A DNA stretch of 64,000 nt, taken from Chara braunii (lineage: Eukaryota > Plantae > Charophyceae). Numbering within the stretch: the first letter of the stretch is position 1; each line of letters starts with the position of its first letter. The position numbers were made by a program, and so were the translations under genes. The notes beneath the pieces were generated by a model that did not search any database, was not told the origin of the DNA, and was given only the letters and a program-made list of their open reading frames with translations. Below are positions 3,656 through 64,000 of this stretch, piece by piece. The stretch is from contig BFEA01000020.1 of the NCBI GenBank assembly GCA_003427395.1, forward strand, positions 2,272,747-2,336,746, in the 5' to 3' direction.

Positions 3656-3658
<3 letters not shown>

Positions 3659-3746: not shown

Positions 3747-3747
<1 letters not shown>

Positions 3748-6129: not shown

Positions 6130-6253
6130 CTGCAACAACACAATCAAGGCAGAAGGGAAGGTAAATCGATGGTTAAGAACATTTAAGGCATTGTTAGATG
6201 TTCACTGAGCTTCATTCAATATACAACTCTATTTGAGTCAGAGAAAACTCTCT

Positions 6254-17651: not shown

Positions 17652-20600
17652 ACCTGTGAAGGTGGCGCCTTGTTGCAGGTACATCGAAGACGAAGCTGGA
17701 GCTATGGCGCCACAGGTAAGTCTCCCTGGCCTCCGCCAACCATCTCTCTCTCTCCAGTACTACTCTAGCTCCTAATAGCGCCCAGTGCTGAAGACTACTG
17801 CTAACGCTACTGCTACTACTGCAGCGCTCCTCCAGAGTGCTGCTGCCGAATCCTGAAGACTGCCTCCTGCCTCCTGCACGTGAAATGCCTGGGAAGTTCC
17901 TATGAACTACCTCGTGACTGTCTGCAGCCTGTAGGGCGGTGTCGTACCAAATACCCTTACAAGGGTATTTGGCGTACTCCCTACAAGTCGCACTAGTGCA
18001 GCCTCGTCCGCTCAACAGCGCGCGTACAAGAGGAAGTTAGGTTCCCGCCACGGCGAGCGGGGCACGCGGGTTATCGGCGGCAAGTTGCAACCATGCGCGA
18101 TATGGGAGGGCGCAACATAGGTGTGCGCGGCGTCACGAGCCAAAGGGATGCGTGGCGCTTATTCTTATATTTATTATTTATTTATTTGTTTGTTTTTGTT
18201 GTTTTTTACCTCGGTAATCGGTTCTGAGGCCGACGCCGGGCACGGTGGCCGAAACGGCAGTCAAAGACCTTGAGCTCGCCCATCGAGACTCCGACGTGAC
18301 CAAGGCGCTGACGGAATCCTAATTGCGTGGGAACGTGGACCGAGGAGTTCAATGTGCATACGAGCCGGTGGGTGATTAGCCCGCAAGGCGGGAGAAACCT
18401 GGGTCACGCAGGCCCTTTGTGGGTATACCGCCACCATCCGCGAACCCGCTGTGAGAAGTTTGTGTGTGACCATGCCCTTTGGGACCCGGAAAGGTAGAGA
18501 GCCTCGCCAGACGCAGTGGGACGGGTACGCCCGGAAGGAGGTCGCGGGGCTGCAGGAGCTGGCCACAAGGAAGCCTTCTCCGCCTCGGTCTTCAAAGTTC
18601 CCATTTGAGCATTTACTACTACCACCAGGGATCCGCACTGGGACCCGCCTTGTTTAGCCCAGACCGCGGCGTTGCAGCAGGGCCTGAGCTTTCTCACTGG
18701 TCTCATCGCAAGGCAGGGGGGAGCAAGGGGGAGGCCGGCTGCGATGCAGACGTGCAACTCGGTCGTCGGAGTTGGGTGTAGGGGGGGAAGGGCCAAAATT
18801 TTGGTCAGATAGCTAGAGATAGAGGACTGTCCTTACTGTGCAATCGATAGGGTCGCGTGCTACGACCGAAGTTGACATCAACGTGAGGAAAAACGAACGG
18901 AGATGCTAGGCGATAGGAGATGCTGAAGAACGGACGAATCTGGGCCCGATAACGCACCGAATACATCCAACCACGAACATGGCGGGCGATGGGTCGAGCG
19001 CAGTTGGAGGAGAGTAAATCGCTTGACTCTCATCGGAACCGGGGGTAGGAGTAGGCGATTCCGAGGTTCTAAGCTATCGTGAGTCTAGTAGTGAGGTTAG
19101 TTTTGACAATAGGGGGCTAGTTTGAGAGCAGTAGAAGAGAGGAGTTGCGCGGAGCCATGGCGGACGGGGGAACGACGAGGGAGAGGGAATGCGATATCGG
19201 CCGCTACTCGAAGAGATCGGGCAGAAGAAAGCTCTACTTCGGGGCTTTTTGACGATGGCGACCCGAGATCTAGGGCTAGTTTTAGTAGAATGTTAGTGGG
19301 ATAAGAGCTACTAAGAAAACTAGTGCACGAAGGGGGCTATGGCGGGACGAGGAAGGAGAAAGGTAAAGGAGAGTGTTATTCGCTCGATCCTCAATGGATT
19401 CGAGCGGGGAAAGACACGGTATAGAGGTATTAAAGTGAGGTGAATTCGATTTTGTTGTTAGTTTGAGTGATTAGTAAGAGTAAAAAGAGGTAAGTAGAAA
19501 GAGTAGTGCGCGGTGAGGTCGGGGGAGTGCAGAAGGTGGGATTATGGGGCAAAGTTTTCGCTCGATTCTAGACGGAATCGAACAAAGTGAAGTGCTAGGT
19601 AAGGGCTTTCGAAGGTTGTGAACATGATGGTAGTGATAGTTTGGGTCATAAGTCAGCGGTTTGCCCGGGGTCAGTGCAAAGAGTTGCGCTCGGGGGCAGC
19701 TTTGAGAAAGAGATGAATCTTTCCGCTGTTTAGCGAAAGATTCATCAGTATTCTTTTATGCTCAGGCGTTATGATCGAAGCAGGGCGGGTTTAGTTGCGG
19801 AGTTGGAAGTGCCTGATGGATCGATGTGTTGCTTATCCCGATGGTAGAGTAGCCGCTCTCTACCACCCGTGTTTTAGCGGAGGAATCATCTAAAGTTTGG
19901 ATTGGGTGTCGATCGTCGAATCAGGAACAACGGGCGTAGCAATAAAGGTTCGCGCCGAGAAAGAGAGAGAGGGAGAATACTCACCTGGAAAACGGGCAAG
20001 CTGAGACGCTTGTGCTGTGCATACCGCTCGATCCTGTATGCTTCCAGAAGGGTGTCTGGTCAGAAAGCTGCTCGTGGAATCAGAACGGAACAACTGGAGG
20101 ATAGTCGAGAAATTGCAAGTGTAGCTGCAGGCTGGTGAGCAACCTGTCCTGTTGATCGAAGCAAGCTGCAAGTGGAGGCGGCTAGGAAGAAGCTTGCTTG
20201 CTGACCGACGTGACACTCTCCCCACCAGCCAGCGTAGCAACAGGCTGCTGAATTTTTGTTGCCAGTTGTGCCTACTGGGCCTACTGATTACTGATCTTGC
20301 CAGGCTTCGGGGCCAGTAGCTAGCGCTGCTATTTCGTTTTTTGAGAGGCGAAGGTGTTTCGTCTCAGCTTGTGGTTCGGAGTCACACTGGTGACCATGCG
20401 GACCGTTAGTTCCCATCGTGCAGCTCATTATTCCACGTACCTCACATCCTATTGATCGAAGCAGCAACGGGCAACCACGAAGGTGCGGACCTAGCCATTG
20501 GCCGGTGTTCTGCGCAACCAGACGTGCCGAGAAGTGAGAAGCGAACAATGAGCTTTGGAGGCTTACTTGCTGATTGATACGCTGCCTATCCTGCCGATCA

Positions 20601-21419
20601 AGGTAGTAGGAGCGAGATCGTGAATAGGGTGCTGGCCAAGGCTTGGCGAGGACTACACAGTCGGTATCTACACAGGCTCCGCCACGTTGCACGACTAGCT
20701 AGAAGCGTTGTTGCTTCATTGCTGAGAAGGAAAAGGTTGGGTTTTCGATTCACGACCCGTATCTTGGGTTGCGGCTTGGGCACTTCAGATCTCGAGCTGT
20801 GGAGGGCTGACCTCGTTGGAGAGGGATGTTGCTGTGAATCGGAAGGATTATCAGAAAGCCAACGGCCTAAGGTTTAACTTTAAATTTGTCAAGATTCTAC
20901 AAATAGGCCATCATTGCGGGGCCCTCAGGCGCATCAAGACAACTAGGCCCTCTCTTGGGAGTTGAGTTAGTCTCTTTCTTGTATCTCGAGCGTCCGAAAC
21001 CCCTATCTTCTATCTTTCGTACTCTAAGTTTAGTCCAGTTCAGAGAGGAAGGCGGCAGGCGGGATTGCAACCCGTAGGACCGCAACAAGACTCCGTGGGG
21101 AGTCATCCCACAGATTGCGGGAGCTCTGCCAGAACTCAGGAGGAGTTCTGGAGGCAGGGAAATGAGAGGTAATCATTGTTTTCCTTCTATAAACCCATTA
21201 TAACCCCTACTTGTATTCATTGTTGCGTTTTGACTGAGTATATTATATGCATCCCTACTTTGACTTTAAATTTGACTGTCATGACAAAACCAAACTAAGG
21301 AATGTATGCGCAATGTCAGTTTCAGTTTTTATTGTTTGACTTAAAGCAGATTGTGGGATTGCATCTCGGGGAAGGATGGGAGGAAGGCAGTATTGCATGT
21401 TTGACTGGGACAACCAAAG

Positions 21420-22085
21420 GCTGGGAGAGTCTCCATAAGATTGGAGGGTTGAGTGCTATGTTTACTTTTGATTGCCTGAAGGACCAGACACGTTCCCATA
21501 AGATTGGGTGGTCTGGTTGCTTTGATTTGTGAGGGCTGACTACGATTGACTTTTCAGGAACCAGGCATGTTCCATAAGTTTGGGTGGCTTGGTCGCCTTG
21601 TTTACTTTGGGTTTCTTTCAGTTTCTTTCTGCTTTGCTTTAAGAGAATGAACCAGGCTGAGGACCAGACATGTTCCATAAGTTTGGGTGGTCTTGGTCTA
21701 ATGCCACACACATGCTGGAACCAAAGGGATATAACTTGGCTATATTTTATTATTACTTTATCTATGAACAGGCTAGTCAGACAGGGTTCCATAAGTTTGG
21801 GTGGCCTGACTATAGCTTATCACCAACTGAAGAGAGTATCAACTAAGAGTAAACTTGTGGTACGAAGGGGCAGACTGAATCTTGAGCTAAAGATGTTCGG
21901 TTCAGTTATATGCTACCTCAAAAGACTAAGTGCAAATAATTATATAAAGTTGGGATACTTAAACAGTTCAGGGCGACTAGGGTGGCCTAGTCATATGCTC
22001 AAAGAAGAGAAAAGTTGTTGTGCCATGTGTTTGTGTATACTCAATGGTTGAGCCAGACATGTTCCATAAGTTTGGGTGGTCTAGC
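21420..22085 (+). repeat. Dispersed hairpin repeats CCA-TAAG(T/A)T-(T)GG in E1
   Basis: About 6 copies of (T)TCCATAAG(T/A)TT(G)GG(G)TGG, several enclosed by AGAC/GTCT-type stems. Confidence 0.8.
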
Positions 22086-24084
22086 TTTATGCCCTATGTA
22101 AGTTGGGTATAAAGGGATAAATCATTGAGAGACTCTGAACTATTGTTTGATAAGTTGACTTAGGGATGGTGAGAGTACTTACCTTTGTGGTTTGGTCTGC
22201 ATATAGCTGAGTGAGATTACTACTTAGTCTGACTTTCAGTTGATAGATAGTTGCTTTAGTTGCTCGCCACGTGCTAGAGCCATAGGAGTTAGTTTCAATT
22301 CTTGCATTTTCTGAGCTATGTTTTTTTTACTTAGGTCAATTTCTGCATTTTCTGGAATTTTTTATTATACTTGGTCTTGTATAAATCTTGGTAAGCCACT
22401 TTCTCTACGGGAAGCGCTGCCAAAATTTCTACAAAACCAAGGAGTTAGTCAGATTTTATCTTTTCAAAGTTCAGTTTGTCTGACTTTTATATATGACTTA
22501 GTAAAAATATAGAGAGTCTCCTTTTCTAAAGGGATTGCTGCCCAAATTTTTGCTAATTCAGGGAGTTATATAAAATTGGACCTTGAGAAGTCAAAGTCGT
22601 TTTAAATTCTGAACTTAGCTTTGTATAAATTTTGGTAAGTTACTTTCTCTACGGGAAGCGCTGTCGAAATTTCTGCAAATCCGAGAAGTTAGTCAAAATT
22701 TGACTTTTCAAAGTTCAACTTGTCTGAACTTTATATATGGCTTAGTAAAAATATGGGAAGTCTCCTTTTCTAAAGGGAGTGCTGCCCAAATTTTTGCTTA
22801 TTCAGGGAGTTAGACAAAATGTGACTTTGGAAAGTTGAAGATTATTTTTTCTAGAAAGACACTTTTCCTACGGGAAGCGTTGCCGAATTGTTTTTAGTTT
22901 AGAAGAGATAAATTATATTTTGACAGGTGGCAACTCTGGCAATCCACTCTATATGGGGGAGATTCTGCCATAGGTCTACCTTTCTTTGGGCACTGGCTTA
23001 GCTATCACGAGAGTCTTGAGTGAAAACGTGTCATTGGGATTTGATCTCCATACATTGACGATTTAGCTTGGACATTGATCTATCGTATGATACAAGTCTT
23101 CTTTGGACATTCGATCCAGGATTTGGACTAGCTTCAGCTTGATCCTACGAGGATCAATTTCTGTTTTCATTGATAACAGGTCGGTTGGTTGATCGCCGAC
23201 TTGTCGGCTTACGACACAACTTTGCTTACACCTGTACCTCAACTTGATTGCCTTAGCCCTAAGATTTGATATGTTTCTTTGAGGGTTTTAACCGGACTTC
23301 TTTTAATGGCCATTATAAAGAACTTATGAGATTTATGAAAAGTTGAACTATGACTGGGGCTTGAGTGTGTGAGGCGTGGTGTGAGTTACAAGGAACAGTA
23401 AAGTTGACCACATTGGTGTATGGCAATGTGGCGTTCGTCTGTGTCTGTGTTTTTATACATGTTAGTGTCTTGGAGTCTGTGTATGATCCTTTCTTTGGAG
23501 GTTGTGAGAATGACAACCATGAGTCGCACGATCTGCATACCTGATGGGTTTATGTTTCCCCTTTTTTTATTTTGTCTCGATATCTGATTTGATATATGAG
23601 TGATGGGATGTTTATTTATTTATTGGGTGATTTTGCTTGTTAATTTTTTATAGTCGGGCGTTGTAATCTGTGGCAACCGTCAAAGTCAAACCCCTTGACT
23701 TCTTTCCAGACCCTGGATGATAGAGCTGGCCTCCAGGGCAATAAGAGATGATTGTCACCACATATATTAACCTGTGTACCACCCACTCTCCNCAGGGTGC
23801 AGAAGAGGGTGTGGTTTTCAACCGCACTTGGCGGTTGTCCAGCGTCGAGAGATCATTCCCTCAAGGCGCGTGTCAGTCGACACTTCAGTGTCGAATGCGA
23901 CCCTCGAGATTAACGAGGACAGCACGAGTATGGGTACTACATAATACGTCATCATCGCGACTGCTCGTGTATTTATTCATTGCTAGTTGATATGAGAAGA
24001 CCCTGCGTCCGCGCAGTTTTATACTAAGTCTCCCGCGTGACGCCTATCCGATTTCCGCATCGGAGAGTTATGGGATGGTTACTA

Positions 24085-24520
24085 AGGGACTAGGAGTGTT
24101 GTTGCGTCGTTTGTTTTGTGTCGTTCTGTATATGTATGTGTGTGCGTGCGTGTTTCAATTTTTAAGTTCTTAGAGTGGTGTACGCGTGGTGCGTGGGATA
24201 CGTCCTAGTCGACCGACGACGGGTCGCGCTTGGGACTTCAGCCCCCCCAAGACGCCGGTTCGTGTGCGGGTCCGATAGAGGCGTAAAACCGCGCGTACCC
24301 CCTATACTGCAGCGAACGAGAAACGCCCTTGGATGGTCCACCTCTGCGATTGCAGCCGATTAGCTTTCGTACTGTGGATTGGTAGCTCGGCGGGGATACC
24401 CCCACCGAAGGGAGGTGACAGCTCCCGTAAGGTGGAGGTAAGTCGTGCCTCGTGTATGCCCTATCCTGTCGTACGGGCTCGCGAGAGGTATGGCTGGCGC
24501 ACTCGGTCGGAGCGGCTTGC
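24085..24520 (+). ncRNA. Structured 3' motif A, copy in E1
   Basis: AGGGACTAGG...GTCCTAGTCGACCG...CGAACGAG..ACGCCCT...GGTGACAGC...TATCCTGTCGTA...GCTGGCGCAC, shared by five copies. Confidence 0.65.
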
Positions 24521-24660
24521 GGAAGCTCCATGTATATATTCACGACAAGGATAAGACCAACTCTTGCGTGACGCGACTGGGAAGGTCCCGCCCCGTTTTG
24601 TGCGGTGCCGGACCGATGCGCTCGACAGCGGGCCAGTCTTATACAGTGCTGGCCCGTCCA

Positions 24661-29299: not shown

Positions 29300-32200
29300 G
29301 GATTCATTTTCAATCAGGCACATGACACTTGTCTCCCCACGCTTCCGGGGTGAGGTGGTGGACTGGTGCTATGATTCCTGGGGGCGGTGGCCATGGGTAA
29401 AGATGAGATTGGAGAATGAAATATGAGGAATCACCACGGTGTTCAGGTCGGTGAAATTATTTTAGCCGGAGACTTTAACTGCGTGGTGTCACCCCCTCTC
29501 GATGCTGCAGTAGACAGATGTAATGACCCACCAAAAACACACACTGAGAACACTGCGGATTTCTGGGATTTGCCGCTGGAATGAATGCCTTGCTGAGATT
29601 CTCGCATTCTGCTGTGGTTTCCAAGTCTGTGTGTGTGTGCCTGCCTGATGGTTTGCATTCCTGTCTGAGTGCTTGTCGGCTGAGTGTGTGTGTGACCCGC
29701 AAGGGTACTTGTTGGTTGAAAGGGACCGCAGGGCCGGTACTTACCTGTGGCCGTGACTTTGAGGGTTGCAGCGGGGAAAAACACTCAAGTAGCGGGGGTA
29801 GGCCCGTGACACTTAGAGCAGCGGGAAAAACACTCAAGTAGCAGGTAGGCTGGTACCACTCAAGTAGTGGTAGAACTGTCGGGTACTGGAGACCGAGCAG
29901 AAGAAGACAAAAAGTTGGCATTTTTAGAGGCCCAGTAGCGGTAGGTTAGAGGTAGGCCGGTACCAGTCCAAGTAGCCCGGGTCTAGGGCCTGTCCGGACC
30001 GATAGCAGAGCCTGCAATGATGTTTCCCTCCGAAAGGGAGGAGGTACCGGTTGCTGGGAGGCCACTCGGCCTAGGAAGTCACCGCCCAAGAGGCCAGTAG
30101 GCAGCTATATTTTCGGGAGGAGCAAGCAGCTCCTCCTCTCATTTGCGGTATGCAAGGATTGGCAACATGCTGCTGGAGCACAGCACTGGACTGGTACAGC
30201 ACTGCCTGGAGGTGAAGGGCAGCTGGGCGCTCAGCCTGGCTATGGCGAGCAGCACAGTTTGAGGAGGAGGAAGAAGGGGGCTAGGGAAGAGAGTGGTGAG
30301 GCACCTACCTGGCTATGGTGGACACCATCCTCATCACCTTGTTGGGCGCTGCATCTGGAAGGCCCCAGTTGGGGTAGTGCCGCACCAAGGAAGCTCGAGG
30401 CAGAGTCAGGCATGGCGGCCTAGTCAGCAGCGGCATAGCTGCTTTGGGTTGTCCTTTGGACAGGAGTGCAGCGCCATAGCTGCTTTGTGTTGTCCTTTGC
30501 ACAGAGAGGAGCAGAGCCCTCAGTTGTCCGCCATAGCCTAGGTTTGTGAGAGGTGGGAGAAGGGGGGAAGCCATAGCTATGGTGGACCTGTTGTTGTTGT
30601 TGTTGTGTCAGCAGTAAGAGGGAACTTCGGATACTGATTCTGGTTCATCCACTCATTGTTATTATTATTACTGGAAGAAGAATAAGATTGGCGAAGTGAA
30701 GGAGGAGGAGGAAGGTGAAGAGAGAAGGGGGATTTGTCATTGGTTCTTCTTCTTCTTCTTCTTCTTCTTCTTCTTCTTCTTCTTCTTCTTCTTCTTCTTC
30801 TTCTTTCTATCTTCTTTGGTCTCTATCTCTTTGCAAGTGCTTTCATTTCTTTCGCAATTGGGTGGCATTGTCTTTCATTGTGAGTTTGCACTTTGGGAAT
30901 GACCAGGATTGTAACACAGATGGGTGGAGGCAGATTCACTGGCCCTGATTATGAGCATGGCCACGCTGGGTTGCAGCGACGCGTACCGGGCCCTGCACCC
31001 CGATGAAAAACCATTTACCTTCTAGAGGAACACTGCCATGCAATCCAGCCGTATTGACATGATCTTTCCTTGCAATCCAGCCGTATTGCATGATCTCATC
31101 CACTGCAGGACTCATCGACAAGCTGGAGCATGTGAAAATACACCCCACGGCAACATCTGACCACACTGCGGTCATAGCCAGCTACTTGCCACTTGGTGGG
31201 GAATTCGGACATGGGCAGGCCACCGAAGGCTATTCCAGCATGGGTCTTTAAGAGCCCGATTCTGGGAAGGTTGGGTGCAAGGCTGCCAACCAGACAATGT
31301 CTTGAGCCAGGTTGTTGATGCCATCCACGACCTCCGGACCCGGTTGGCGGTCGCCCTCTAGAATAGTTATTTGGCGCATCAACAGATGGGGGAGGAGTTT
31401 GCACACAGAGTTCAGGAGCCGTTTCGGGGCCGGACGGGAGGACAGATGAAAGTTGAATGGTGGGCGGAGCAGGTGGAGGCCGCCCTTGCATGGACGGAAT
31501 GGCAGGTGAAGGCGGTGGTGAAATGGGGCCGACGAACGAAGGGAACATGAACGCTGGTGGGAGAGCGGATGTCGAGGAAGTTTTTTGTGGCAGTGGGCAC
31601 CAGCAAAGCCCCGACGGTAATGTCAGCAACGGATCACCCGTTCAACGATCAGATGGGAAGGCAGCGGATGACACTGGTTATCCTGACGTGTGACACTGGT
31701 TATCCCGCAGAGGAGATGGACAGCGAGCCACAGCAGGATGTATGGCAGCATGTTCATGCTCAATTGGATCTGGAACGCAGCTGCAAACTGGAACACGAAA
31801 CATTTCACACGACGAGGTGAAGCGAGCCATTGCAGAGTTGCCTAGATTGAAAGCACCCGGTCTTGATGGCGTGCCACTGGTGTGGAGTTGTACAAGGACT
31901 TCAGGCACTTCTTTGTGCAACTCCTCCTGCTGGCATACAATGAGGCCTTGTGACATGAAGGTGCCGCTGGGGTTTGCAGACGCATATACTGTCCTGCTGT
32001 ACAAGAAAGGGCTCAGCGAGGATGTCCGCAACTGGCGCCCAATCTCCATCCCTCAATGCCATTTACAAAATCCTGGTGAAAGTGCTGATAAATGGGCTGC
32101 GCGAAGTGCTGCCTACGCTCATTCACCCCACTCAAACGGGGTTTACACTGGGAACGGCGGGAAGGGAGATTTTAGCAAAGGTAATTCTGGCGCACCAAGT

Positions 32201-37077: not shown

Positions 37078-37151
37078 TGGACGACGTGGGGAATCGAACC
37101 CGCAACCTCCTGAATACCACTTACGTGCTCAAACCAACTGAGCTAGCTCGC
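37078..37151 (-). pseudogene. tRNA pseudogene / tRNA-SINE head
   Basis: TAGCTCAGTTGG A box, GGTTCGATTCC B box, CCA end. Acceptor and anticodon stems are poor. Confidence 0.75.
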
Positions 37152-37704: not shown

Positions 37705-38190
37705 ATCACCACTTCAGGACACCCTTCACCACTTCAGGATGCAGCCTGCCTAAATAGGTGGTTTTCAGGGTCTTCGGACCTTTCACCACTTCAGGACCAT
37801 TCAGGTCTGAAAATCCTGAATGGTCCTGAAGTGGTGAAAGCTCCGAAGACCCCGAAAACCACTTGTTTAGGCATGCTGCATCCTCAAGTGGTGAAGGGTG
37901 GTTTTCATGGTCTTCGGACCTTTCACCACTTCAGCACCATTTAGGATTTTCAGACTGCCATAAACTCTCACTTGACCACTTCAGGACACCCTTTCAGACT
38001 GCCATAAACTCTCACTTTACCACTTCAGGACACCCTTTCAGACTGCCATAAACTCTCACTTGACCACTTCAGGACACCCTTCACCGCTTCAGGATGCAGC
38101 TTGCCTAAACAAGTGGTTTTCAGGGTCTTCGGACCTTTCACCACTTCAAAACCATTCAGGATTTTCATACTGCCCAAAACTCTCACTTCA
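37705..38190. repeat. Palindrome with ~90-bp arms centred near 37810, plus 41-bp tandem repeats with CCACTTCAGGA core
   Basis: ACCATTCAGG-TCTGAAAAT-CCTGAATGGT at the centre. CAGACTGCCATAAACTCTCACTT x3. Confidence 0.85.
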
Positions 38191-38511: not shown

Positions 38512-40013
38512 TGTCGGCCCAAATACCCTTACAACTTACAAGGGTATTTGTCCATATTTTCGCAAGGCACAGAAACTGCATTTCTAGCGCAAGCTGGGGT
38601 AGTAGTGCGTCCATCCTTTTGTATAGGTCGCATCCAACTCTCAACAGTAAGAGGAAGGGAGGGCACTTTGTTTGTATTAGAGAGTGTGTGAGCACTTTGA
38701 GACACGCATTGATTATCTAGATGTCTGACGGTTCCGGGAACTGGTGGTCCGGCAAGAGATCTCGCACAATGGTGCAAGATAGAGAAATATTAAATTTTGA
38801 TAAGCATGCCCGCGCACACTGCAGGCGCGCGCGCAGAAGCAAGTATTTGTGTAACCGACATCAAGGTTGACTATTAGTGTCGTGATTCGAGCTGATTATT
38901 GTTGACTTGCTGAAGCAGCACCGAAGTCAATGTAGGACGGAGTGCATGAGGCACCTTGATTATTGTGTTGTGGCTTGTCGGTCGGATCCAACTGCAGCCT
39001 CGGCAAGGCATACGTAAACGGCGTCTGACACAGGTAATAGGTTGGGAGTTGTGTCCACTCAAGTACCGAGACCGTTGGCCAAAATAGTAAAACTACAGGT
39101 TGAAAATGGCCGCTCACACGGGCCTGGAATTGGAGGCGAGCACAACGCAGACATGGGCAGAAGCACGCACAGCAACAATAAACGGTTTCCAAATCTTCGC
39201 GTGGCAAGAGCAGGAGCTTGACGGCCGTGGGTTCAGTCGACAAGCCAAGTTGTGGCTTTGGCGCGGTTCGGTGGGCCAAGGTGTGGCCTTGCTTTATTTA
39301 TGCAGGTCTGGACACGGGGCAGATATATTCATAAGAAATTTGGCCCCCGCTACAACCAGACTTGCGCTTAGCCCTATTGGCTACGACATTTGACTTTCAC
39401 GTAACACGTATGGGGATGAAGGCCAGCTGACGGCGGAGGAGCAGCTGAGTTAATGGAGGAGTTGAGGGTCTGGCAAGACTATCCCCTGTGGTTTTGTCAT
39501 CGATCCCGGGCCCTCTCTGGCATGAACCGAGGGGTTGAGGGTCTGGCAGGACTATACCCCTTGGTTTTGTCGTCGGTCCCAAGCTCGGGGCCGAGTGGCG
39601 GGATCGAGGAAGTGCTAGTAATAACCTTTTCCCTCGCACTTCGCTTTTCTCGTTGTTTATTATTTAAAAATTTTAATTACTATTTTATCATCCCTTTTTA
39701 TCCCACTTTTGAATGGGCCCAGCACTGGCTCCGAGACTGATGGTGGAATCAACGGGCCTAGCTCAGTTGGTACATCTACGAACCATTGAAATAAAGACCT
39801 GAGTTTGAATCCGGATGATGGAACTTAACGAGTAAAACCAAATATTTTTTGTTGTTACCCTCGTGCTCAGTGTGGTCATGGTCATCCTCATTACCTGAGT
39901 GATTGACCTTGTTATCTGCATGGTCGTCGGCATGCACTTTTATGGACTGCTTGTGGTTGTCAGTGGTACCTGTAGTTAGCACCCTATGTCAGACTTCAAG
40001 TGCTAGTAATATC
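38512..40013 (+). mobile_element. E2: 5' end of a TGTCG element (left flank CCGC), with tRNA-like head at 39754-39812; 3' part absent or displaced
   Basis: CCGC|TGTCGGCCCAAATACCCTTACAACTTACAAGGGTATTTG. 39832-40012 is homologous to 62939-63335. Confidence 0.7.
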
Positions 40014-44059: not shown

Positions 44060-45208
44060 AAGAAGGGGGTGGGTCGGGCCTTCCATTAACCGCCTCTCGT
44101 GCCAAGGAGAAAAAGAGTAAGAGGAAGGGAAAAGAGTCGGTAGAAGAAGAAAGCAGCAGTGAGAGCGAGGAGGAAGAGGAGCCGCCTCGTAAATCGACAA
44201 AGGCGGAAGAATGGCAGTGCTGGCGGTGGTTCGGCAGGACAAAGTTCCCAGGATCAGGGGCCGTTCCAGCCGCAGGGATAATGAGGCCGCGATCGAGGCT
44301 GTGGGAACGGACAACGAAACCGTTGGGCGTGGCAGCAGGAGGCCACATGTAACTATTGTGCAGAAAAGCGTCATATTATGCAATTTTTTCATCTTCTATC
44401 AAAAGATGAGAAGAGGGGATAGTCTTCACCACGATACGTGGTTAAGTCTTTGATTCTGCAGGGAATCTGATCGACCCCAACATTGAAGGGCGTATGAGGA
44501 AGGAGGTGTTTTGCCGACTGGGTCGTTCCCTTCCGGCGACGTTCCGGATTGCTTCCCCGGGAGAAGCACTGTTAGCCGAGGTCGAGGAGGCCATGGCATC
44601 GTTACATATTAACGACTCACCGGTGGAGTCGGAAGGGTTTAGGGAACAAGTGGTGGAACGAGCGCAAACCATCACTACGAGGCTTGCCCGATGCCGGGAC
44701 TCCATCATCCAACTTTGCGTGGACATGGAGGAAGTCTGGTCTGGATTGCTGAATGTCTTTCTCTTTGGCGAATGGGGTGATCAAAGGGAGGATGCGCCTG
44801 GCCAAGCAGGGACGTCTACACCGAGGGAAGTATTGCAAACTAGGCCGATGGTAAGCACGATGCGACCCAGACCTGTGCTAAAGAGAAGTGCCCCGACTAT
44901 AGTCGTTCAGACTCGGATGCGGCGACAAAGCGAGCAGAAGGAAAGAGGGCCTGAAAAGGCAATGGAAGAAGAGCCTATCCCCGTTAGTGAGAACGAGGAG
45001 GATAACGAGGATGAGAGGTTGCGGGCCGAAAAGGAAGAACGGGCTCGTCGACGCGCGCTAGAAAGGGAACCTGAGAAAGGGAAGGCCGAGGTAAGCGAGG
45101 AGGAGCCGCGAAAAAAGAAGAACATTTACTCAATCCCCGTGGCGCAGGGTATTGAAATTGAGCGACTTGTTGATAAGATCCTAGAGAGTCAGCGCAACTT
45201 GGTCACGT
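44060..45208 (+). pseudogene. gag: gag C-terminal part of the host Gypsy-related element (degenerate zinc knuckle), split by E3/E4
   Basis: CNYCAEKRHIMQFF at ~44348, then ORF 44494 up to ...SQRNLVT, continuing in frame at 56534. Confidence 0.75.
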
Positions 45209-45792
45209 TGTCGGGGCAGAAACCCTGACAAGGGTATCTGCCCGTGTTTTTCAACATCGGACGCTCTCTGATCTTTTCGCTAAATTGGAGGACTTGATGA
45301 GATTGACGTTGCCAAAGTTTATTCAGACCAGCACTATGACTGAGAGACCTAAACTTTTTTTTTTCGAACCTGACGTCGTCGACGCAGAACGACATCGACG
45401 TCCGTGCGGGATAGCGGTAGTCGGCACCGTCGTCCGCGATTTTCGACGAGGCCGCAGTAGTGTGCGGTCATGAGAAAACTAAAGTTAAAAACCTAGTCTA
45501 CCTATAATAAGGTCGCGCGACTGTACAGCCGCGCGATTCAAAGCCTAAGTGGGCTAAAAAGGGGTCGCAGCGGTAAGGATGGACCGCGGCGTGAAGGAAT
45601 GGTTTAGGGCCCACAAGGCTTTTGCGCCGAGGACCGGGGGCGAAGGCGTCGGGGCCGGCTGGGTAGGGCAGTCGTTAAGGCTGTCGGCTGCCGACCTCGC
45701 CTGCCAGCCACGGCGGCAAGTAGGCTTAGCAGGCACAGCCTGCTAGGCGTCGGAGGGGGGCCTGCTGGGCACCAGAAGCCCTTCATATAGAA

Positions 45793-46059
45793 GGGCTGCT
45801 CCTTCCTTGATGTGGGAAGGAGCTAGCCCAGTAGGTACCGCCGCTAGATTGTTACCCTGCAAGCACAGGGATCGAACCTGACTAACTGCACCATCGGGCT
45901 AGCTCCTTTTGGAGCAGCCCACGACATCGGGATGGGCACGGCCGATTTTGGCCGTGCGATCTTCGAGATTGCGCGGCTGAAATCAGCCGCGCCGAGATTA
46001 GCATGGCCCCTGTGCAAGGATGAAACGCATAAATTGAGAAATGTCCAAGTTTTTTTTTT
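45793..46059 (+). ncRNA. Multi-hairpin / U6 3'-half chimeric RNA ending in a T-run
   Basis: 45995 onward reads AGATTAGCATGGCCCCTGTGCAAGGATGAAACGCATAAATTGAGAAATGTCCAAGTTTT, matching plant U6. Upstream stems GGGCTGCTCC/GGAGCAGCCC and GGAGCTAGCCC/GGGCTAGCTCC. Confidence 0.85.
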
Positions 46060-46247
46060 NNNNNNNNNNNNNNNNNNNNNNNNNNNNNNNNNNNNNNNNN
46101 NNNNNNNNNNNNNNNNNNNNNNNNNNNNNNNNNNNNNNNNNNNNNNNNNNNNNNNNNNNNNNNNNNNNNNNNNNNNNNNNNNNNNNNNNNNNNNNNNNNN
46201 NNNNNNNNNNNNNNNNNNNNNNNNNNNNNNNNNNNNNNNNNNNNNNN
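46060..46247. other. Assembly gap
   Basis: Run of N. Confidence 1.
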
Positions 46248-47350
46248 AACTTACCTACCCCGCATCTGGACACGCAAGCGCCCAGATACGGGCTCCAAAG
46301 AGATGTGCAGGGAACCGAGATTCAACTGCTTTTCCGCATCTCTGCTTAAAACACGTTCGGATTCAGGAGCTCGATCCTGTCCTTTCGCAAGGGGGACCTC
46401 GGCCAGCAAGCCGTGGCTAGGCCACGACATGATGTGACCGTTGGCATAAGCCAACGGGAGAGAAAAAAAAATAAGAAAAAAAAAGGAAAAAAAAAGGGGG
46501 GAGAACCGAAACCGGCGCGCCATCTGGCGCGTTTTGAAGTGACTAGGAGCTTAAAGCCCCCAGTGAGGTGACAGGCGCCCGTTAGAAACGGGCAGCCACG
46601 TTTAGGTAGGTTCTTTTACTTTTTCGTTTTCATTTTTCCTTTTGTTAGATTTTGCTTAGATTTTATTTTTATTTTTTTTTTTTATTTTTTTTTTTTGGTT
46701 TAGATTTTTTGTTTTCTTTCTTTTTTTTTACCTGTTCGTTTTGAACGAACGGGCAGGTGCAGCCAGCCAGACTGTTTCGTCGGGGTTCCACCGACTCATC
46801 TGGGGACTTTGCCCCAACAACCCAGCTCCGGATGGACGAATGAATCTGCCGCCTACGGGCGGCTATGTGCTGGTAGTAGAGGGGGTGGTGAGATAGGTGG
46901 ACGTGACTGCGCCAGACTGTTTGGTCGAACTTTCACCAGGAGGCTGAACCTCGACAGTCGGCCAGTCTGGCTGGTCGGCCCGAATGAACCACCTGCGAAA
47001 GTGCAGCTGGATGCGGGCGAATCGAGGTGAGTGAGAGGGAGAGAGGTAGACGTTGGCGGCCAACAGGCAGAGTGCCCTTCGTTTTTGGGCAAGCTCTGAG
47101 CCGCGCGCCTGTACTTGGTGGCCGTTTGAGCCACATAAGGGCGCGGGGCATAGGGGAAAGAACCCCTTTAGCTTGAGCCTGTGGAGTGGTTGGGGAGGCT
47201 GCTCGTTTTCCAGAACGAGTTGCCTCTGCCCAAGGAAGGAGTAATGGCCACGTACGTGGCCGCGGGGGTAGTTTAGGTGCAGGGGCAAGAAAAAGAAGAA
47301 GAAGGGAAGGATAGGAGAGGGGGAATGTTGCGAATGTAGCCGCGACACAG

Positions 47351-47625
47351 GCCCAGATGCAATACTAGAAGCATCTGGGCTTTGATGAGACTGCAGACTG
47401 TTAGAGTTCAACAGTCTGTTGCAAATGGCTGAGTATAGCCATTTGTGCATTGCGTCTGGCCGCGGGTGAAGGCAAGATGCATTGCCTGGGCTCGGGACAT
47501 GGTTCCCCTAGGGGAACATCAAGTTTTCTGGCCCTTGATCGCGATTTAGATCAAGGGTCAGGCCCTGTTCCGAGATTTGGCTGGGGGCAAAGCAGCTGCC
47601 CTCAGCCTTCGGCCAGCTATAAAAG
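47351..47625 (+). promoter_or_regulatory. Palindrome ladder followed by TATAAAAG (47618)
   Basis: About six consecutive inverted repeats, then a TATA box. Conserved in E4. Confidence 0.6.
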
Positions 47626-49414
47626 CTAGCCTGCCACCCAACAGCCTCGCACTTGTGGCAATGCTACTGGGGCATTCTACTTGAGTAGATGCTGGCTGGC
47701 TGGCTGCTGGTGTAGTAAGGCGAAGTGCTGGAGGCCTGCAGAAGCACTTGGAGGAAGGAGGAGGCTGCCATAGCTAGAGGCTGGGAGCTTCTTGCCCCCC
47801 CTTTTGTGCTATGCTGCAGGCTATGAGGAAGCCGTAGCCGTGAGGCTGCAGCTGGATTGGACCGTGCGCCAAAGGGTTCGACGGGAAGGTGATGCCCGAT
47901 GGTCGGCACGCGACAAAGGGTTTTTGAGAAGGAGGCTGCGCCGCTGTACTTTTGAAAGGAGATGCTGTCGAAAATTTTGCGACAGCACCGGGTTAAGCAG
48001 CAGCACTGGTCTTCTTGGCGGTACGGCGGAAGCGCTGCCGAAATTTTTCGGCAGCGACACTAGTCTTCTTGGCAGTACGGCGAAAGCGCTGCCGAATTTT
48101 TTTTGGCAACAACGCTGGTTTACGGCAATACGGCAGAAGCGCTGCCGAAAATTTGCAGCGATTGCATTGGGATCTTGACGATAGTGCATGGCCTGCCGGG
48201 GTTTCACAGGTGGAAGCGGCAGTGTTATTGGCATTGAATACATATACGGTGGCTGGGCATCGGTACAAGGGAGTGTTGTTAAGGTAGTGGCATGTTTTGG
48301 AGCATTGGGAACGTGACACTGCTGTAGCTTGGTGACGTTGGACGCAAGTAACGTGGCTGGCGGTTGTCACGAGGGAATGGTGTGAATCGCCCTGGGATTA
48401 ACTTGGTGTGACGATCTTCTCACTTGAGGGCGTTTTGGCATACGTCACCTGCGGGGTTTTGTCAAGGCCGTGGTTATTTTTTTTGCGGCGCGTTGAGTAA
48501 GCGGGGATTGAGTTTGGGACCACCACATATTGTGGCGGTAGTGTGGAACCATCACGGACCATTCTGGGTCCAAGTGAGTGAGGCTGGAAATAAGTGTGGT
48601 GATCAAGCGTGGTAATTGGTGGGGATTGGAATTGACGATTGCGGTGGCGCTATTCTTGGTAGGAAGCGTGCCGCTGAGATCATAGTAAGACTGTGTGGGA
48701 TTTGAGAGTGGGGCACCCTCCTCAAATGGCGAGCTTGCTTCTGTCTAGGTGAGCGGCGTCTGGGTCAGTGGTGGCACTTGAAGGAGGGTGTGGTTCGTCC
48801 TTGTGAACGGCCGCAACGGGAGTTGTGCGGCCACACTTCTCTTGAGAAAATACTTGGCTTTCTTGAGCGGGCCTTCATAAAGTTCACTCAAGGTCAGTTG
48901 TGACTCGGTTTCCTTTGCACACCCGCGTGAACCCACACCTTGCATGACCTTGCTTTGAATTCAGGGGAAAAGGTAGAGTAAGTGTGTGACATCATGCGTG
49001 TGGGAAAAGGGCTGACTTTGGTTGGGGGATGGATGAATCTTTGGATTGTTTCTTTTCTTGACTGTGCAAGTGGATTGGAGGGTGCATGGAGGAAGGAATC
49101 AGCATTGTTTGCTCGAGAGAATGATGGAGATATTCCACTCAACCTGAATGCATGTGAGAAAAAAGGGGGAAATAATAATAATAATAATGAAAGTGCGAAT
49201 TGACGGGTGCCGAAAGAACGAAATTCGTGGGAAAGGGAAATGAAGATGAGGTAGCAATTTGGTGAATCCATTAGGACTCCCGTTCTATCCCAAATGGCCA
49301 CTTTCTTTCTATGCCCGTCCAAAAGAGTCTTACTTCCGTTTTCTTTTTGATTCGTCTAAGCCAACCCTTAGCTAGGAGGCATTGAGCAGTCGTCTGCACC
49401 TGAGGGTGTAGGCT

Positions 49415-49610
49415 TCTTCACTCTAGGAGGCATCTGAGGCAGGGGTTCGTCGCCTTAGGGGCCGGCCCTGTTATCAACTCGGAGAGGACCGCTTATGTGG
49501 GGGGATACCATGCTGTTGCGGTGGAGCCAGCCCAACTCCTGAGTCCTAAACAATGTGTTCGGGCGAGGAGGAGGGGTATTCTAGACCACTTCTAGAGGGA
49601 AAGGTGTCTT
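49415..49610 (+). ncRNA. Structured motif B, copy in E3
   Basis: CTAGGAGGCATC...GGACCG...GGGCGAGGA...CTAGAGGGAAAGG, homologous to 53000-53200 (-) and 57920-58110. Confidence 0.6.
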
Positions 49611-49890
49611 GAAGCTAGGACAGTCACCTCCTCGTGCTTTCAGGAGAAGGGGGAGTTGAATCTAGTACGTTGCTGGGTGGCCGTTTTAGGAGCCACCAAC
49701 GCGTGGGAGGGCTGGCGCCACAAGAAGCCCAGCTCGTGCTTCAGCTAGTGTTAAAGGAAGTGCAAGTAGGCACTACTCTCGCGGTTGGACCGTGACACAA
49801 GAATCACGGCTCGGGAGGGGGAATGAAAATTGAACATGGAAATTGGTATATCTAAATTTATTTTGACAAAGTTACCGCTTCGTCGTTCAG

Positions 49891-50364
49891 ATGCTTGCGG
49901 AGGCGGTGATCCTCCGATTGTTCAGCACACGCGAGGCGACGACCGATTGGTTAGCGGTGCCAACACGATCCCGCGCCGGCATGATACGGAAAGGAAGGCT
50001 GGTATACAACCCACTTGAAGTTTTCTCAGAACAGGATATGCCACAATTCTGGGACGGGAGCGTGATTGAACCAGGTCAGCACATTGTAGGATATGACTTT
50101 GCACCCCCTAATCCATTACGGGATTACGGAGACATGAGCCTCGTCGTGATTCATGAAGAGTGTCCAGGGATAGAAAGCATTCCTGAGGTTAGGGGAATGT
50201 TCCTCTATATTGTACTCCATTTGAACGATCAGCAAGGCCCGTTCAGCCTCCTTCATCATGTGAGACGGGTCCGAGCGAATAGATTTAATATCGTTCGCTC
50301 GGAACGTTTTGACGTCACCGCATTTTATGACGAGGCTTTTGAAATCTACGAGCGCCTCTTCTAA
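49891..50364 (+). CDS. Hypothetical 157-aa cargo protein in E3
   Basis: ATG-initiated, uninterrupted, globular-like composition. No recognised domain. Confidence 0.5.
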   Translation: MLAEAVILRLFSTREATTDWLAVPTRSRAGMIRKGRLVYNPLEVFSEQDMPQFWDGSVIEPGQHIVGYDFAPPNPLRDYGDMSLVVIHEECPGIESIPEVRGMFLYIVLHLNDQQGPFSLLHHVRRVRANRFNIVRSERFDVTAFYDEAFEIYERLF

Positions 50365-50387
50365 TAGGTGGCTCTTTCGATGTGCAG

Positions 50388-50939
50388 ATGCCTAGCGGGC
50401 GGCGGGACGTCACTCAAGCTAGGTATCTGTTGGTCCGCGATACTATGGACGAGGAGCTGATCCGGTGCGCGGAGCGATTACTACTGGTTCGAGATGGGGC
50501 GCCCACCCGTTGGAGTGGTTTTATTGGCCTGCTCAGCGATGGGCAGGGATTTTTTCCCAACTCGCGCGCAAATGTTTGTGCCAATGTGGCCTGGCTTCCG
50601 GAAGAAGCTCATGGATATACTTTGTACTTCCATCGCGCGAGCAACCTCCAATGCCTCTCACGGGTCATTGTGAGCATCAAAATTACCCTATCCGGGGAGC
50701 GCTACGGTGTCATCCGGATTAAGGACACCACGACCACGCACCTTTTTCGGATGCGTCAACCGTTTCACGTGAGAGTTTGGAAGCTCGCCTCACGGGTGGC
50801 TTCTCTCTATGATACGCGAAAGGTTCGGGTCTTGCGAGGCGGACACGTCTCCACCTTGATTTTTGACGATGAGGAACTTACACGACTCGGCCGGATAGAG
50901 GCTGAGGCCCGTGAGGGCCGACAGGTTTATCCCGGCTAA
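50388..50939 (+). CDS. Hypothetical 183-aa cargo protein in E3
   Basis: ATG 23 nt after the previous stop, in a different frame. No recognised domain. Confidence 0.5.
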   Translation: MPSGRRDVTQARYLLVRDTMDEELIRCAERLLLVRDGAPTRWSGFIGLLSDGQGFFPNSRANVCANVAWLPEEAHGYTLYFHRASNLQCLSRVIVSIKITLSGERYGVIRIKDTTTTHLFRMRQPFHVRVWKLASRVASLYDTRKVRVLRGGHVSTLIFDDEELTRLGRIEAEAREGRQVYPG

Positions 50940-51591
50940 GCGCGCCCTTTCGAATCAGGTGCCATGGTGAGTTGTCCTTATAGTAGGGTCACATTTATGC
51001 GACTCTACAAGGGTAATAACAACAAAAAAAAACAACAATCTTGCGTAAGTAGGCAAACCAGATGGATAGTATCTAGATTACCCCGATGATAGCACTATCA
51101 TGCTTATGCATTGAGGGGTAATCGATCGCTTAAAAATAAGCCGAGCAAAGTGAAAATCGGACATCTGAAAGGGTGGTGAGCAGAACGGCGAGGGAAAAGT
51201 ATTAGGAGACGAAACACTTCCATACCAAGTAACCTGGTGTTGGAGATTGATACGTCACCATTCGTGGAACAGAAAAAATATTTATCACCTAGGAGGACAA
51301 AGCGACCACCAAAATTACATTCACTCCTCCAAGTAGTCACCCATGATAAGGAGATGTGGTAAAACCGAGAGTTCAAACATCGACCAGGAACCAGATCACT
51401 TGTTGATCTGCTTGGTACCAGTGGTATTTACTTGTAGGAGCTATTCACGACGGATCTCCCGTCTTTGGACGGCGGTATAGTTGTCTCTTCGGTTATATAG
51501 GCGGGGAAGAATAACCTTGGCAGATCATCTCATCAAGTCAAAGCGTTGTTTATGTATTGATTATATTCATTTTATGAGTAGGGGATTAAAA

Positions 51592-51935
51592 AGGGGCTAG
51601 GATTGTATTGTGGGTTTCAAGTTTGCTTGAGGCCGTCCTAGTCGACCGACGTTCGTTCGTACCGAGGAGATTAGCGCCCTCGGGAACGAACAACATTCGG
51701 GTCCACTTGGCTTTAACCAAGAGTACCTATACTCCAGCGAGCGAGCAAACGCCCTCCGCTGACCTACCTTTGCAATTGCATGTAAAAGCTTTCGCATGTG
51801 GGTCAGTAGCTCGGTAAGGATACGCCCCTGAGGGTGGTGACAACCCCTTAGGGAAGGTTAGATGTGCCCCGCGAGAACCTATCCTGTCGTAGGGGACCGT
51901 GGGATGTACAGCTGGCGCACCCGGCTAGAGCGGCA
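51592..51935 (+). ncRNA. Structured 3' motif A, copy in E3
   Basis: Same conserved blocks as the other four copies. Confidence 0.65.
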
Positions 51936-63103: not shown

Positions 63104-64000
63104 TCTCCTTGATTTTCAGTTTTCTTTGAGCATCGTTATGGTAGGGCCATGTTGCTCGCGTAAACGTCGTGCGCACATTGGTTCCGATCACCCTCGTGCT
63201 CGGTGTGGTCATGGTCGTCCTCGTTACCTAAGTGATTGACCTTGTTATCTGCATGGTCGTCGGCATGCTTGTTTATGGAGTGCTTGCGGTTGTCTGTGGT
63301 ACCTGTAGTCACCACCCTGTGTCAGACTTCAAGTGAACCTGGTTGTGTTGACGACCAGGTTCATCGGGCCATTAAGGACGGTCGGAAGGGTGGGGTGGCT
63401 GAGACGCAAATGCTAGCCAAGTGGGAACAATAGGGGGAACAAATTCTCCAGAGTAAGAAGGTGGGGAGGAATGAGAAGAGGATGGAGTGAAGGGACAAAA
63501 GGGATGAACTGAGGAGAAGGTTGAGGAAGACAACGAAAGAGTAGGGAGGCGCAAGCACAACACAAGTATACGCCCGCGCGAGAGAGAGGGAGCCGCGCAC
63601 CATATTTGTTGCTGCTGGTGGTTGTCCCCAAGACGTTCGTCTCCGTTGCAGTGGTGTTCGCGGTCTTCTTTCCGTTGGTCGAAGGCAATCATCCTGGTGG
63701 ACTTGCTGCTTGTTGTTACGATCGTTTTGGTGGTGTTTGTCATCGCATGGTCGTTAGATCGTTCGTCATCATCGAGATCCTGTAGATCGTCGTGTTCATC
63801 GTGACAATTGTGCTCCACGTGAAGGCTGACAACTCTCAAGGTTGAGCGCACACGACTCCTCACATGAGAGGACTCTCAAGACAGAACACACATCCTCACG
63901 GTCATAAGTGTCGAAGAGGGTAGATAAGGTTAGGTGCAACATACCTCAAAATAGCTTCCCCCAACCACAGATATTCTCACCAGATGACCCGATGTTGATT

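What the first reader, a model, noticed from the sequence alone, without database searches (positions are those of the whole stretch)
45793..46059. Element-borne chimeric RNA: hairpin/tRNA-like 5' domain fused to the U6 snRNA 3' half
Seen: E3 and E4 (55831-56017, minus) both carry the U6 segment from AGATTAGC through the ISL to a T-run, 640-790 nt from their 5' ends. The U6 5' stem and ACAGAGA box are replaced by GC-rich hairpins (GCCGTGCGATC-TTCGA-GATTGCGCGGC; GCGCGGCTGA-AA-TCAGCCGCGC) and an A-box-like TAGCCCAGTAGG. Both copies share a C>T change in the ISL (CCTGTGCAAGG). By eye, the U6 part is better conserved than the flanks. Known: this half of U6 pairs with U4/U2 and binds Prp24/Lsm2-8, and U6 ends can be ligated to LINE RNA by RtcB. 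Inference: a selected Pol III transcript acting as spliceosome decoy, stability tag, primer or ligation handle.
Basis: partly seen in the sequence, partly recalled or inferred. Interest (0 to 1): 0.88.

Follow-up and report, generated by a model that had tools for sequence, protein, structure and literature searches.

The report
U6 half carried in giant LTRs
Half of the U6 splicing RNA sits behind a long hairpin inside two diverged copies of a large algal repeat that is likely a retrotransposon's terminal repeat, and its better-than-average conservation suggests the element likely kept it as a working RNA part, though no transcript has been shown.

Summary
Confirmed: Rfam finds the U6 3' half at 45995-46055 (+) and 55833-55893 (-), without the 5' stem and ACAGAGA box. 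It lies 787 and 641 nt inside two copies (E3, 6.9 kb; E4, 4.4 kb) of a repeat with TGTCG...C(G/A)ACA ends, no terminal inverted repeats and 4-bp NCGN target duplications. That target signature is reported for Phygy gypsy retrotransposons, so these are likely giant solo LTRs; the organism is Chara-like. One 23-28-bp hairpin, the most stable fold in each element, abuts the U6 piece; a tRNA-type A-box lies upstream in both, a B-box-like site in E3 only. The hairpin cassette is roughly in hundreds of copies (rough, from DNA depth). The U6 core is 42/46 identical between copies versus 80% in other alignable blocks (nominal p 0.04), but not above the 3'-terminal block (p 0.15). Against a Pol III chimera: internal T4/T5 runs, no B-box and a changed catalytic triad in E4. 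Poly(A) RNA shows only background and cannot test Pol III. Copy number and expression of the U6 part itself are untested. Verdict: likely a new, U6-based variant of the Cassandra/Helenus/Ajax kind; function plausible, unproven.

The parts
45209..52081 (+). E3: 6,873-bp element, TGTCG...CGACA ends, likely a giant solo LTR (contains the gap 46060-46247)
   Evidence: ends and ACGT/ACGT duplication; no TIR or internal direct repeat
52086..56533 (-). E4: 4,448-bp element of the same family, tail-to-tail with E3 at the same target site
   Evidence: flanks ACGT and ACGC on the + strand
45205..45208 (.). left target-site duplication ACGT (NCGN); repeated at 52082-52085 between E3 and E4; ACGC at 56534-56537
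45214..45243 (+). subterminal hairpin at the 5' end, shared by E1, E2, E3, E4
45824..45835 (+). A-box-like motif in E3, similar to tRNA-like heads elsewhere in the window
45870..45878 (+). B-box-like motif, 46 nt after the A-box start; E3 only
45939..45989 (+). long hairpin (23 bp) directly 5' of the U6 piece in E3; most stable 62-nt fold in the element
45995..46055 (+). U6 snRNA 3' half in E3 (U4-pairing region, ISL, 3' end), followed by a T-run into the gap
47618..47625 (+). TATA box in a conserved promoter-like block (47287-47634) of E3
51641..52081 (+). conserved, highly structured 3'-terminal domain of about 450 nt (also in E1, E4, E5, partly E6)
55973..55985 (-). A-box-like motif variant in E4; no B-box follows
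55892..55961 (-). long hairpin (28 bp) directly 5' of the U6 piece in E4; most stable 62-nt fold in the element
55833..55893 (-). U6 snRNA 3' half in E4, catalytic triad changed at 55887, followed by a T-rich tract
54696..54703 (-). TATA box of E4, same block as in E3
44446..45204 (+). gag part of the host Ty3/gypsy element that E3 and E4 interrupt
56534..57630 (+). continuation of the host gag-protease frame, broken by stops and cut off before the RT
17940..24627 (+). E1: distant family member (6,688 bp, GCGG/GCGG duplication) without a U6 piece

Best explanation
The 3' half of U6 snRNA sits behind a tRNA-type A-box motif and a long hairpin inside two diverged copies of a 4.4-6.9-kb repeat with NCGN target duplications that is likely the solo LTR of a Phygy-like gypsy retrotransposon, and the piece was likely captured once, spread with the element and likely kept by selection as the stabilising 3' end of a predicted short Pol III RNA. 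Steps. Shown: U6 half, hairpin, element ends, duplications, repeat status of the cassette. Inferred: the repeat is an LTR and the cassette lies in U3, 1.2-1.6 kb upstream of a conserved TATA box. Inferred: capture by template switching onto U6 RNA, or insertion of a SINE-like unit (tRNA-like head, hairpin, U6 tail), in an ancestor of E3 and E4. Predicted: A/B-box-driven transcription gives an RNA of about 240 nt in E3-type copies that ends on U6's own U-tail, would bind La and Lsm2-8 and could pair with U4, but could not splice because the ACAGAGA box is gone. The likely benefit is in cis, as proposed for small-RNA-derived LTR segments: an extra Pol III unit in the LTR. E3 and E4 themselves are old, decayed copies.
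For: U6 half in both copies above the Rfam cut-off. TG..CA ends, 4-5 of 5 terminal bases inverted but only 5-6 of 10, no internal direct repeat; 4-bp duplications in 3 of 3 complete elements (one with one mismatch) and NCGN at 4 of 4 independent sites, chance about 4e-6. Phygy: 4 bp NCGN in 100% of 186 elements, the only lineage with that preference (PMC6317226 passages and supplement row). Only 1,438 of 4,448 nt of E4 align with E3, and the hairpin-U6 block is one of the five major aligned blocks. U6 core 42/46 identical versus 1,014/1,265 pooled (Fisher p 0.04). Both copies share one change from the Rfam consensus, which the third U6-like copy in the window does not have: one capture fits. 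The hairpin is the most stable 62-nt fold among 1,313 and 878 windows. The A-box pattern (built after seeing the hits) occurs 5 times in 64 kb: in E3, E4 and three tRNA-like heads; in E3 a B-box-like site follows at tRNA spacing. DNA run X1: summed depth 4,256-6,364 on the A-box part and 1,369-3,798 on the hairpin part, against 1,017-1,986 just upstream, 34 on the flank and 5-10 for the listed long pieces. At 45938 and 45949 about 81-82% of the DNA depth carries a letter that pairs better in the hairpin than E3's does; the one at 45949 also shortens one T4 run. Break point is just 5' of the triad that pairs in U4/U6 stem I; Lsm2-8 binds the U-tail and keeps U6 nuclear (PMC5855946 passages).
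Against: No transcript shown: poly(A) runs gave 8 of 8.9 million and 24 of 16.2 million records, none 95% or more alike, no start or end peak; such libraries cannot test a Pol III RNA. E4 has no B-box; E3 has T4 runs at 45907 and 45946 and E4 T4/T5 runs at 55960 and 55947, which could stop Pol III before the U6 part. ARAGORN finds no tRNA in the E3 head even at a relaxed threshold. E4's catalytic triad is changed. The conservation test has two copies, was chosen after the fact, falls to p 0.07 over the whole piece and is not significant against the 3'-terminal (p 0.15), 5'-terminal (p 0.09) or hairpin (p 0.075) blocks; 49 of 1,090 sliding windows, all in the 3' block, do as well. No copy with PBS or internal region was seen, so the LTR reading is indirect; Phygy elements total only 7.7-10 kb. 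E1 lacks the cassette, so the family can do without it. That other hairpin copies carry U6 is assumed from 2 of 2.
Confidence: 0.4

Rival explanations
1. Passive passenger: a 5'-truncated U6 copy entered an ancestral LTR once, was amplified by hitchhiking, and looks conserved only by chance, by ascertainment or by a recent exchange of this segment between subfamilies.
For: Excess conservation is nominal (p 0.04 core, 0.07 whole) with n = 2. Triad changed in E4. No RNA signal beyond background. U6 is the snRNA most often captured by template switching, 5'-truncated U6 chimeras exist, and a few snRNA copies are associated with LTR elements (PMC4476161 passages). The window holds another decayed U6 copy. 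E1 has none.
Against: Two thirds of E4 no longer aligns with E3, yet this block does. Each copy matches 30 of the first 32 conserved U6 positions (read), while promoter-like blocks differ by 24%. The adjoining hairpin keeps its pairing through sequence changes. No direct repeat of 6 nt or more flanks the E4 piece.
Confidence: 0.3
2. The hairpin-U6 block is selected but works inside the element's long Pol II RNA, where U3 is copied near the 3' end: it would pair with U4 or bind U6 proteins to steer splicing, nuclear retention or export, or packaging. No separate short RNA exists.
For: Conservation is highest in the U4-pairing core, not at the tail. Missing B-box and internal T-runs do not matter under this model. 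Sense orientation relative to the TATA box in both copies. The family has other conserved RNA structure at its 3' end.
Against: The A-box-like motif and E3's B-box-like site would be unexplained; Lsm2-8 needs a free 3' end; no full-length element or transcript was seen.
Confidence: 0.2
3. The block is the tail of a U6-targeting transposon left on a beheaded U6 gene (Dada- or Utopia-like), later embedded in the repeat.
For: Both copies break at the same U6 position; Dada elements target U6 genes.
Against: Dada-U6 breaks U6 at positions 65-70 and leaves both halves; here the break is near position 46 and no 5' half lies at the other end. No RT or transposase was found upstream.
Confidence: 0.05
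4. The RNA acts in trans as a spliceosome decoy that titrates U4 or Prp24 and alters host splicing.
For: The retained half is the U4-pairing half and lacks the splice-site-binding box.
Against: Needs abundant RNA, for which there is no sign; a benefit to the element is hard to name.
Confidence: 0.05

Closest known systems
Cassandra, Helenus and Ajax (TRIMs with 5S- or tRNA-derived Pol III promoters in their LTRs; PMC10886601, passages and section 4.2 read)
   Same: A small-RNA-gene segment inside an LTR-type repeat, amplified with it, with short target duplications; proposed origin by SINE insertion into an LTR.
   Different: Donor here is U6 (plus a tRNA-like A-box); the U6 half is not itself a known internal promoter; the repeat is 4.4-6.9 kb rather than a miniature element and has its own TATA box; no PBS or PPT seen. 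The paper has no mention of snRNA.
Phygy non-chromovirus Ty3/gypsy elements of moss (PMC6317226, passages and one supplement row read)
   Same: 4-bp NCGN target duplication, TG..CA ends.
   Different: Phygy elements are 7.7-10 kb in all, mostly coding; the repeats here would be LTRs of 4.4-6.9 kb. PBS and RT lineage not established.
U6/LINE chimeric retrocopies and snRNA pseudogenes (PMC4476161, passages read)
   Same: U6 captured by a retroelement; 5'-truncated U6 pieces occur in platypus U6-L2 chimeras.
   Different: Those are single events with U6 5' of a LINE and flanked by duplications; here the piece is internal to a multicopy LTR-type repeat, no LINE follows, no flanking duplication.
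SINEU (U1/U2-headed SINEs; PMC4494074, passages read)
   Same: A repeat family that propagates spliceosomal RNA pieces.
   Different: U1/U2 at the 5' head with a poly(A) tail, moved by Tx1 LINEs; here U6 forms the 3' end of a cassette inside a larger element.
Ginger1 DNA transposons (PMC2836005, passages read)
   Same: TGTNR termini, 4-bp CG-centred duplications, 2.6-7 kb.
   Different: Ginger1 has 40-270-bp TIRs and CCGG/CCGT targets; these elements have no TIR and use ACGT, GCGG, CCGC.
Dada-U6 DNA transposons (PMC3706591, passages read)
   Same: Association of a transposon with a split U6.
   Different: Different break point, 6-bp duplication, both U6 halves flank the element.

Membership tests
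TRIMp3 (Cassandra/Helenus/Ajax) | Small-RNA-derived Pol III promoter (A and B or C box) in the LTR | tested here: inconclusive
   A-box-like in both, B-box-like in E3 only, no tRNA called
TRIMp3 (Cassandra/Helenus/Ajax) | Miniature element with two short LTRs, PBS and PPT | tested here: not met
   4.4-6.9 kb, no direct repeat between first and last 2 kb, target duplication directly after each end
TRIMp3 (Cassandra/Helenus/Ajax) | 4-5-bp target duplication | tested here: met
TRIMp3 (Cassandra/Helenus/Ajax) | Pol III transcription from the LTR | not testable with these tools
   the raw-read RNA runs listed are oligo-dT libraries
Phygy LTR retrotransposons | 4-bp NCGN target duplication | tested here: met
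   3 of 3 complete elements, 4 of 4 independent sites
Phygy LTR retrotransposons | tRNA-Trp primer site and gag-pol between two LTRs | not testable with these tools
   only solo or broken copies in the window; no genome held
Phygy LTR retrotransposons | RT/RH/IN group with moss Phygy | tested here: inconclusive
   for the host gag-pol family only: of 20 relatives looked up, 5 named Chara, 1 Riccia, 2 Smittium, none moss, 12 without organism; no tree built; link of the E elements to this family unproven
Phygy LTR retrotransposons | Total length 7.7-10 kb with short LTRs | tested here: not met
   the putative LTR alone is 4.4-6.9 kb
Ginger1 DNA transposons | 40-270-bp terminal inverted repeats | tested here: not met
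   12-13 of the first 40 bases match
Ginger1 DNA transposons | CCGG or CCGT/ACGG target | tested here: not met
   ACGT, GCGG, CCGC seen
U6/LINE chimeric retrocopy | U6 followed by LINE 3' sequence, flanked by a duplication | tested here: not met
   E4: no match downstream to the window's LINEs, no flanking direct repeat of 6 nt or more; E3 runs into a gap
Dada-U6 | Insertion at U6 65-70 with both halves flanking | tested here: not met
Functional U6 snRNA gene | 5' stem-loop and ACAGAGA box | tested here: not met
   model positions 1-45 unmatched
Functional U6 snRNA gene | Intact catalytic triad | tested here: inconclusive
   intact in E3, changed in E4

The most novel reading that the evidence does not exclude
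An LTR retrotransposon subfamily has domesticated the U4-pairing half of U6 as a functional RNA: hundreds of LTRs carry a tRNA-head/hairpin/U6-tail cassette whose transcript enters the U6 snRNP pathway (La, Lsm2-8, Prp24, U4) without being able to splice. It would be a spliceosomal-RNA counterpart of Cassandra's 5S segment.
Probability: 0.3. Interest if true: 0.85.

Novelty: new variant of a known kind. Interest (0 to 1): 0.56.

Why it matters
Small-RNA segments kept in LTRs are described for 5S rRNA and tRNA, where they supply an internal promoter. The U6 3' half is not a known promoter, so its retention would point to a different use: borrowing the host's U6 RNA-binding machinery. It also exposes a large repeat family in a charophyte alga, likely very long Phygy-like LTRs with CG-centred targeting and a 450-nt structured 3' end. 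Both can be tested at once on the public genome.

Tried and rejected
No whole genome is held, so copies could not be counted directly. Four exact-pattern scans found nothing: metagenome contigs twice, viral contigs, genome contigs; these collections need not hold this alga. Run search: no RNA holder listed, which is no evidence. Read data over the U6 segment itself were not obtained; only 45150-45985 was examined. ARAGORN: no tRNA in the window at default, none in the E3 head at a relaxed threshold. Rfam found nothing credible in the 3'-terminal domain; a group II intron or ribozyme reading has no support. The ORF remnants in E3 (49867-50939) have no Pfam hit; for the first, no homolog was found and only weak phosphatase look-alikes under 0.9. 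Rejected: insertion into a U6 gene (no 5' half at the far end), Ginger1 (no TIR), LINE retrocopy (no LINE, no duplication), U4 mimicry by the hairpin (no Rfam U4 hit). Attempt to place the host gag-pol with Phygy was inconclusive. tblastn of 56 related polyproteins on the window: 1 (P0038) runs from the protease into E3-type sequence in the same orientation, a weak hint of linkage. Earlier-findings look-ups by sequence, by long word list and by place were empty. Literature searches listed no paper on a U6-derived segment propagated in LTRs or on this family; most hits were seen as listings only, and the Chara genome paper and Repbase were not available, so absence from print is not established.

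Full report
Observation. An Rfam scan of the window finds three U6 matches above the gathering score. Two are 3' halves: 45994-46055 (+, 51.6 bits) and 55833-55897 (-, 48.2 bits), each lacking model positions 1-45, that is the 5' stem and the ACAGAGA box. They start at 45995 and 55893. Both share a C>T change (46013, 55875), which by my recall falls in the five-base loop of the internal stem-loop; I did not confirm the loop position in a paper. The third match (63015-63110) is a decayed near full-length copy that keeps C there. E4 also has G>A in the catalytic triad (55887). E3's T-run ends in an assembly gap.

The carrier. Both pieces lie in members of one repeat family. Searching for its ends gave three complete copies: E1 17940-24627, E3 45209-52081 and E4 52086-56533 (minus), plus a lone 5' end (38512) and a lone 3' end (59527). 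All start TGTCG followed by a hairpin and end C(G/A)ACA. Flanks are GCGG/GCGG, ACGT/ACGT and ACGT/ACGC; the lone ends abut CCGC and ACGT. All are NCGN; for four independent sites chance is about 4e-6. E3 and E4 sit tail-to-tail in one site of a gypsy gag frame, which resumes after E4 and leads to an aspartic protease. All 3 and all 53 relatives of that protease found in two searches are labelled Chara braunii, and several carry RT, RNase H or integrase domains, so the organism is that alga or a close relative. The elements have no terminal inverted repeat beyond about 5 bp and no internal direct repeat. E3 and E4 share a TATA box in a conserved block 1.2-1.6 kb downstream of the U6 piece. Neumann et al. 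2019 (PMC6317226; passages and one supplement row read) report NCGN 4-bp duplications in 100% of 186 Phygy elements and in no other lineage. Ginger1 has CG-centred targets too but needs 40-270-bp inverted repeats (PMC2836005 passages). I infer giant solo LTRs of a Phygy-like element (about 70%), with an LTR-less non-autonomous element moved by a related integrase as the alternative. No copy next to a primer site or internal region was seen. The attempt to tie the host gag-pol to moss Phygy was inconclusive.

The cassette. Directly 5' of the U6 piece each copy folds into one long hairpin, 23 bp in E3 and 28 bp in E4. It is the most stable 62-nt window in each element, -44.5 and -38.6 kcal/mol, while E1's best is -29.4. 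Further upstream both copies have an A-box-like motif. A pattern built from it hits five places in 64 kb: E3, E4 and three tRNA-like heads, one of which ARAGORN calls tRNA-Thr at a relaxed threshold. E3 alone has a B-box-like site 46 nt on (box consensus recalled). T4/T5 runs lie between A-box and U6 in both copies.

Copy number. On 45150-45985 a DNA run laid 2,918 of 10,067,109 contigs at 80% likeness or more. Summed depth is 56,698 at the 5' terminus, 34 on the flank, 4,256-6,364 on the A-box part and 1,369-3,798 on the hairpin part. With listed long pieces at a median depth of 8.6 this is roughly thousands of termini and 160-740 cassettes; the tool warns that summed depth is not a copy number, so this is an order of magnitude only. 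Sequence before the 5' end is diverse (agreement 0.36-0.39), as for dispersed insertions. Some contigs match both the 5' terminus and the cassette, so other copies carry it in the same context. At two positions most of the depth has a letter that pairs better in the hairpin than E3's, so E3 is a decayed copy. The U6 segment itself was not covered by read data: its copy number is inferred from 2 of 2 window copies.

Conservation. Only 1,438 of 4,448 nt of E4 align with E3. The U6 core is identical at 42 of 46 aligned columns (91%) and the whole piece at 54 of 61 (89%), against 1,014 of 1,265 (80%) in five other blocks: Fisher p 0.04 and 0.07. It beats the promoter-like and internal blocks (p 0.01) but not the 3'-terminal block (84.5%, p 0.15), the 5' terminus (p 0.09) or the hairpin (p 0.075). 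This is modest evidence for constraint from two sequences, chosen after the fact; recent exchange of the block between subfamilies would look the same.

Expression. Two oligo-dT runs gave 8 of 8,921,925 and 24 of 16,176,506 records, none 95% or more alike, on both strands, with no start or end peak. A contig set guessed to be RNA gave 20 of 700,747, mostly at the 5' terminus. This shows no abundant polyadenylated transcript of this region and says nothing about a Pol III RNA.

Mechanism. I commit to a captured, probably selected cassette in U3: tRNA-like head, hairpin, U6 tail, predicted to give a short Pol III RNA that ends on U6's U-tail. The retained half holds the triad that pairs in U4/U6 stem I and the tail bound by Lsm2-8, the nuclear retention signal; the lost half holds the box that reads the 5' splice site (PMC5855946 passages). 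Confidence 0.4. A passive passenger (0.3) and a role inside the long Pol II RNA (0.2) remain close rivals. A trans decoy and the remnant of a U6-targeting element are unlikely (0.05 each); Dada-U6 breaks U6 at 65-70 and leaves both halves (PMC3706591 passages).

Comparison. It would work like Cassandra, Helenus and Ajax but fails their size and structure tests, and their donors are 5S rRNA and tRNA; the Helenus/Ajax paper has no mention of snRNA. U6/LINE chimeras and a few snRNA copies tied to LTR elements are known as single events (PMC4476161 passages; the cited Giles 2004 paper was not read). SINEU uses U1/U2 heads (PMC4494074 passages). My searches listed no report of U6 propagated within an LTR family, but the Chara genome paper and Repbase could not be consulted.

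Verdict. The feature is real and not a lone pseudogene: it rides in a multicopy element and is better kept than most of that element. Its function is unproven. New variant of a known kind, interest 0.56; 0.85 if the RNA and its selection are confirmed.

Noticed in passing
window 51641-52081 (+), 52086-52535 (-), 59010-59527, 24198-24627, 62716-62942: A 450-nt 3'-terminal domain shared by all family members, even E1 which shares little else. It folds into a closed multi-branch structure; 25 of 122 predicted pairs change on both sides among four copies (structure derived from the same alignment, so biased). No Rfam match.
   Followed up: partly
window 45205-56537: Two family members inserted tail-to-tail at the same 4-bp site of a gypsy gag, sharing one ACGT.
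   Followed up: yes
window 63015-63110: Decayed near full-length U6 copy (53.5 bits). It lies between sequences that resemble two adjoining parts of the SINE-like element at 39755-40002.
   Followed up: partly
window 57630-59527: E5 is a 5'-truncated family member joined directly to the cut-off host pol in the same orientation; it could be the host's own 3' LTR after a deletion.
   Followed up: partly
window 49867-50939: Two overlapping ORF remnants (165 and 198 aa) inside E3, downstream of the TATA box; no Pfam hit for either, no homolog for the first.
   Followed up: partly
window 2940-3091, 30473-30570, 47767, 54400-54512: The motif GCCATAGC clusters downstream of TATA-like sites in unrelated elements, including a chromovirus LTR and E3/E4.
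   Followed up: no
window 35908, 39755 (+), 37085-37150 (-): Three tRNA-like SINE heads.
   Followed up: partly
window 37708-38190: Array of direct and inverted repeats forming long near-perfect hairpins; Rfam microRNA matches below gathering score.
   Followed up: no
window 8523-16361 (-): Near full-length LINE with RT and zf-RVT, many single Ns and two exact 96-bp duplications around an N, probably assembly artefacts.
   Followed up: no
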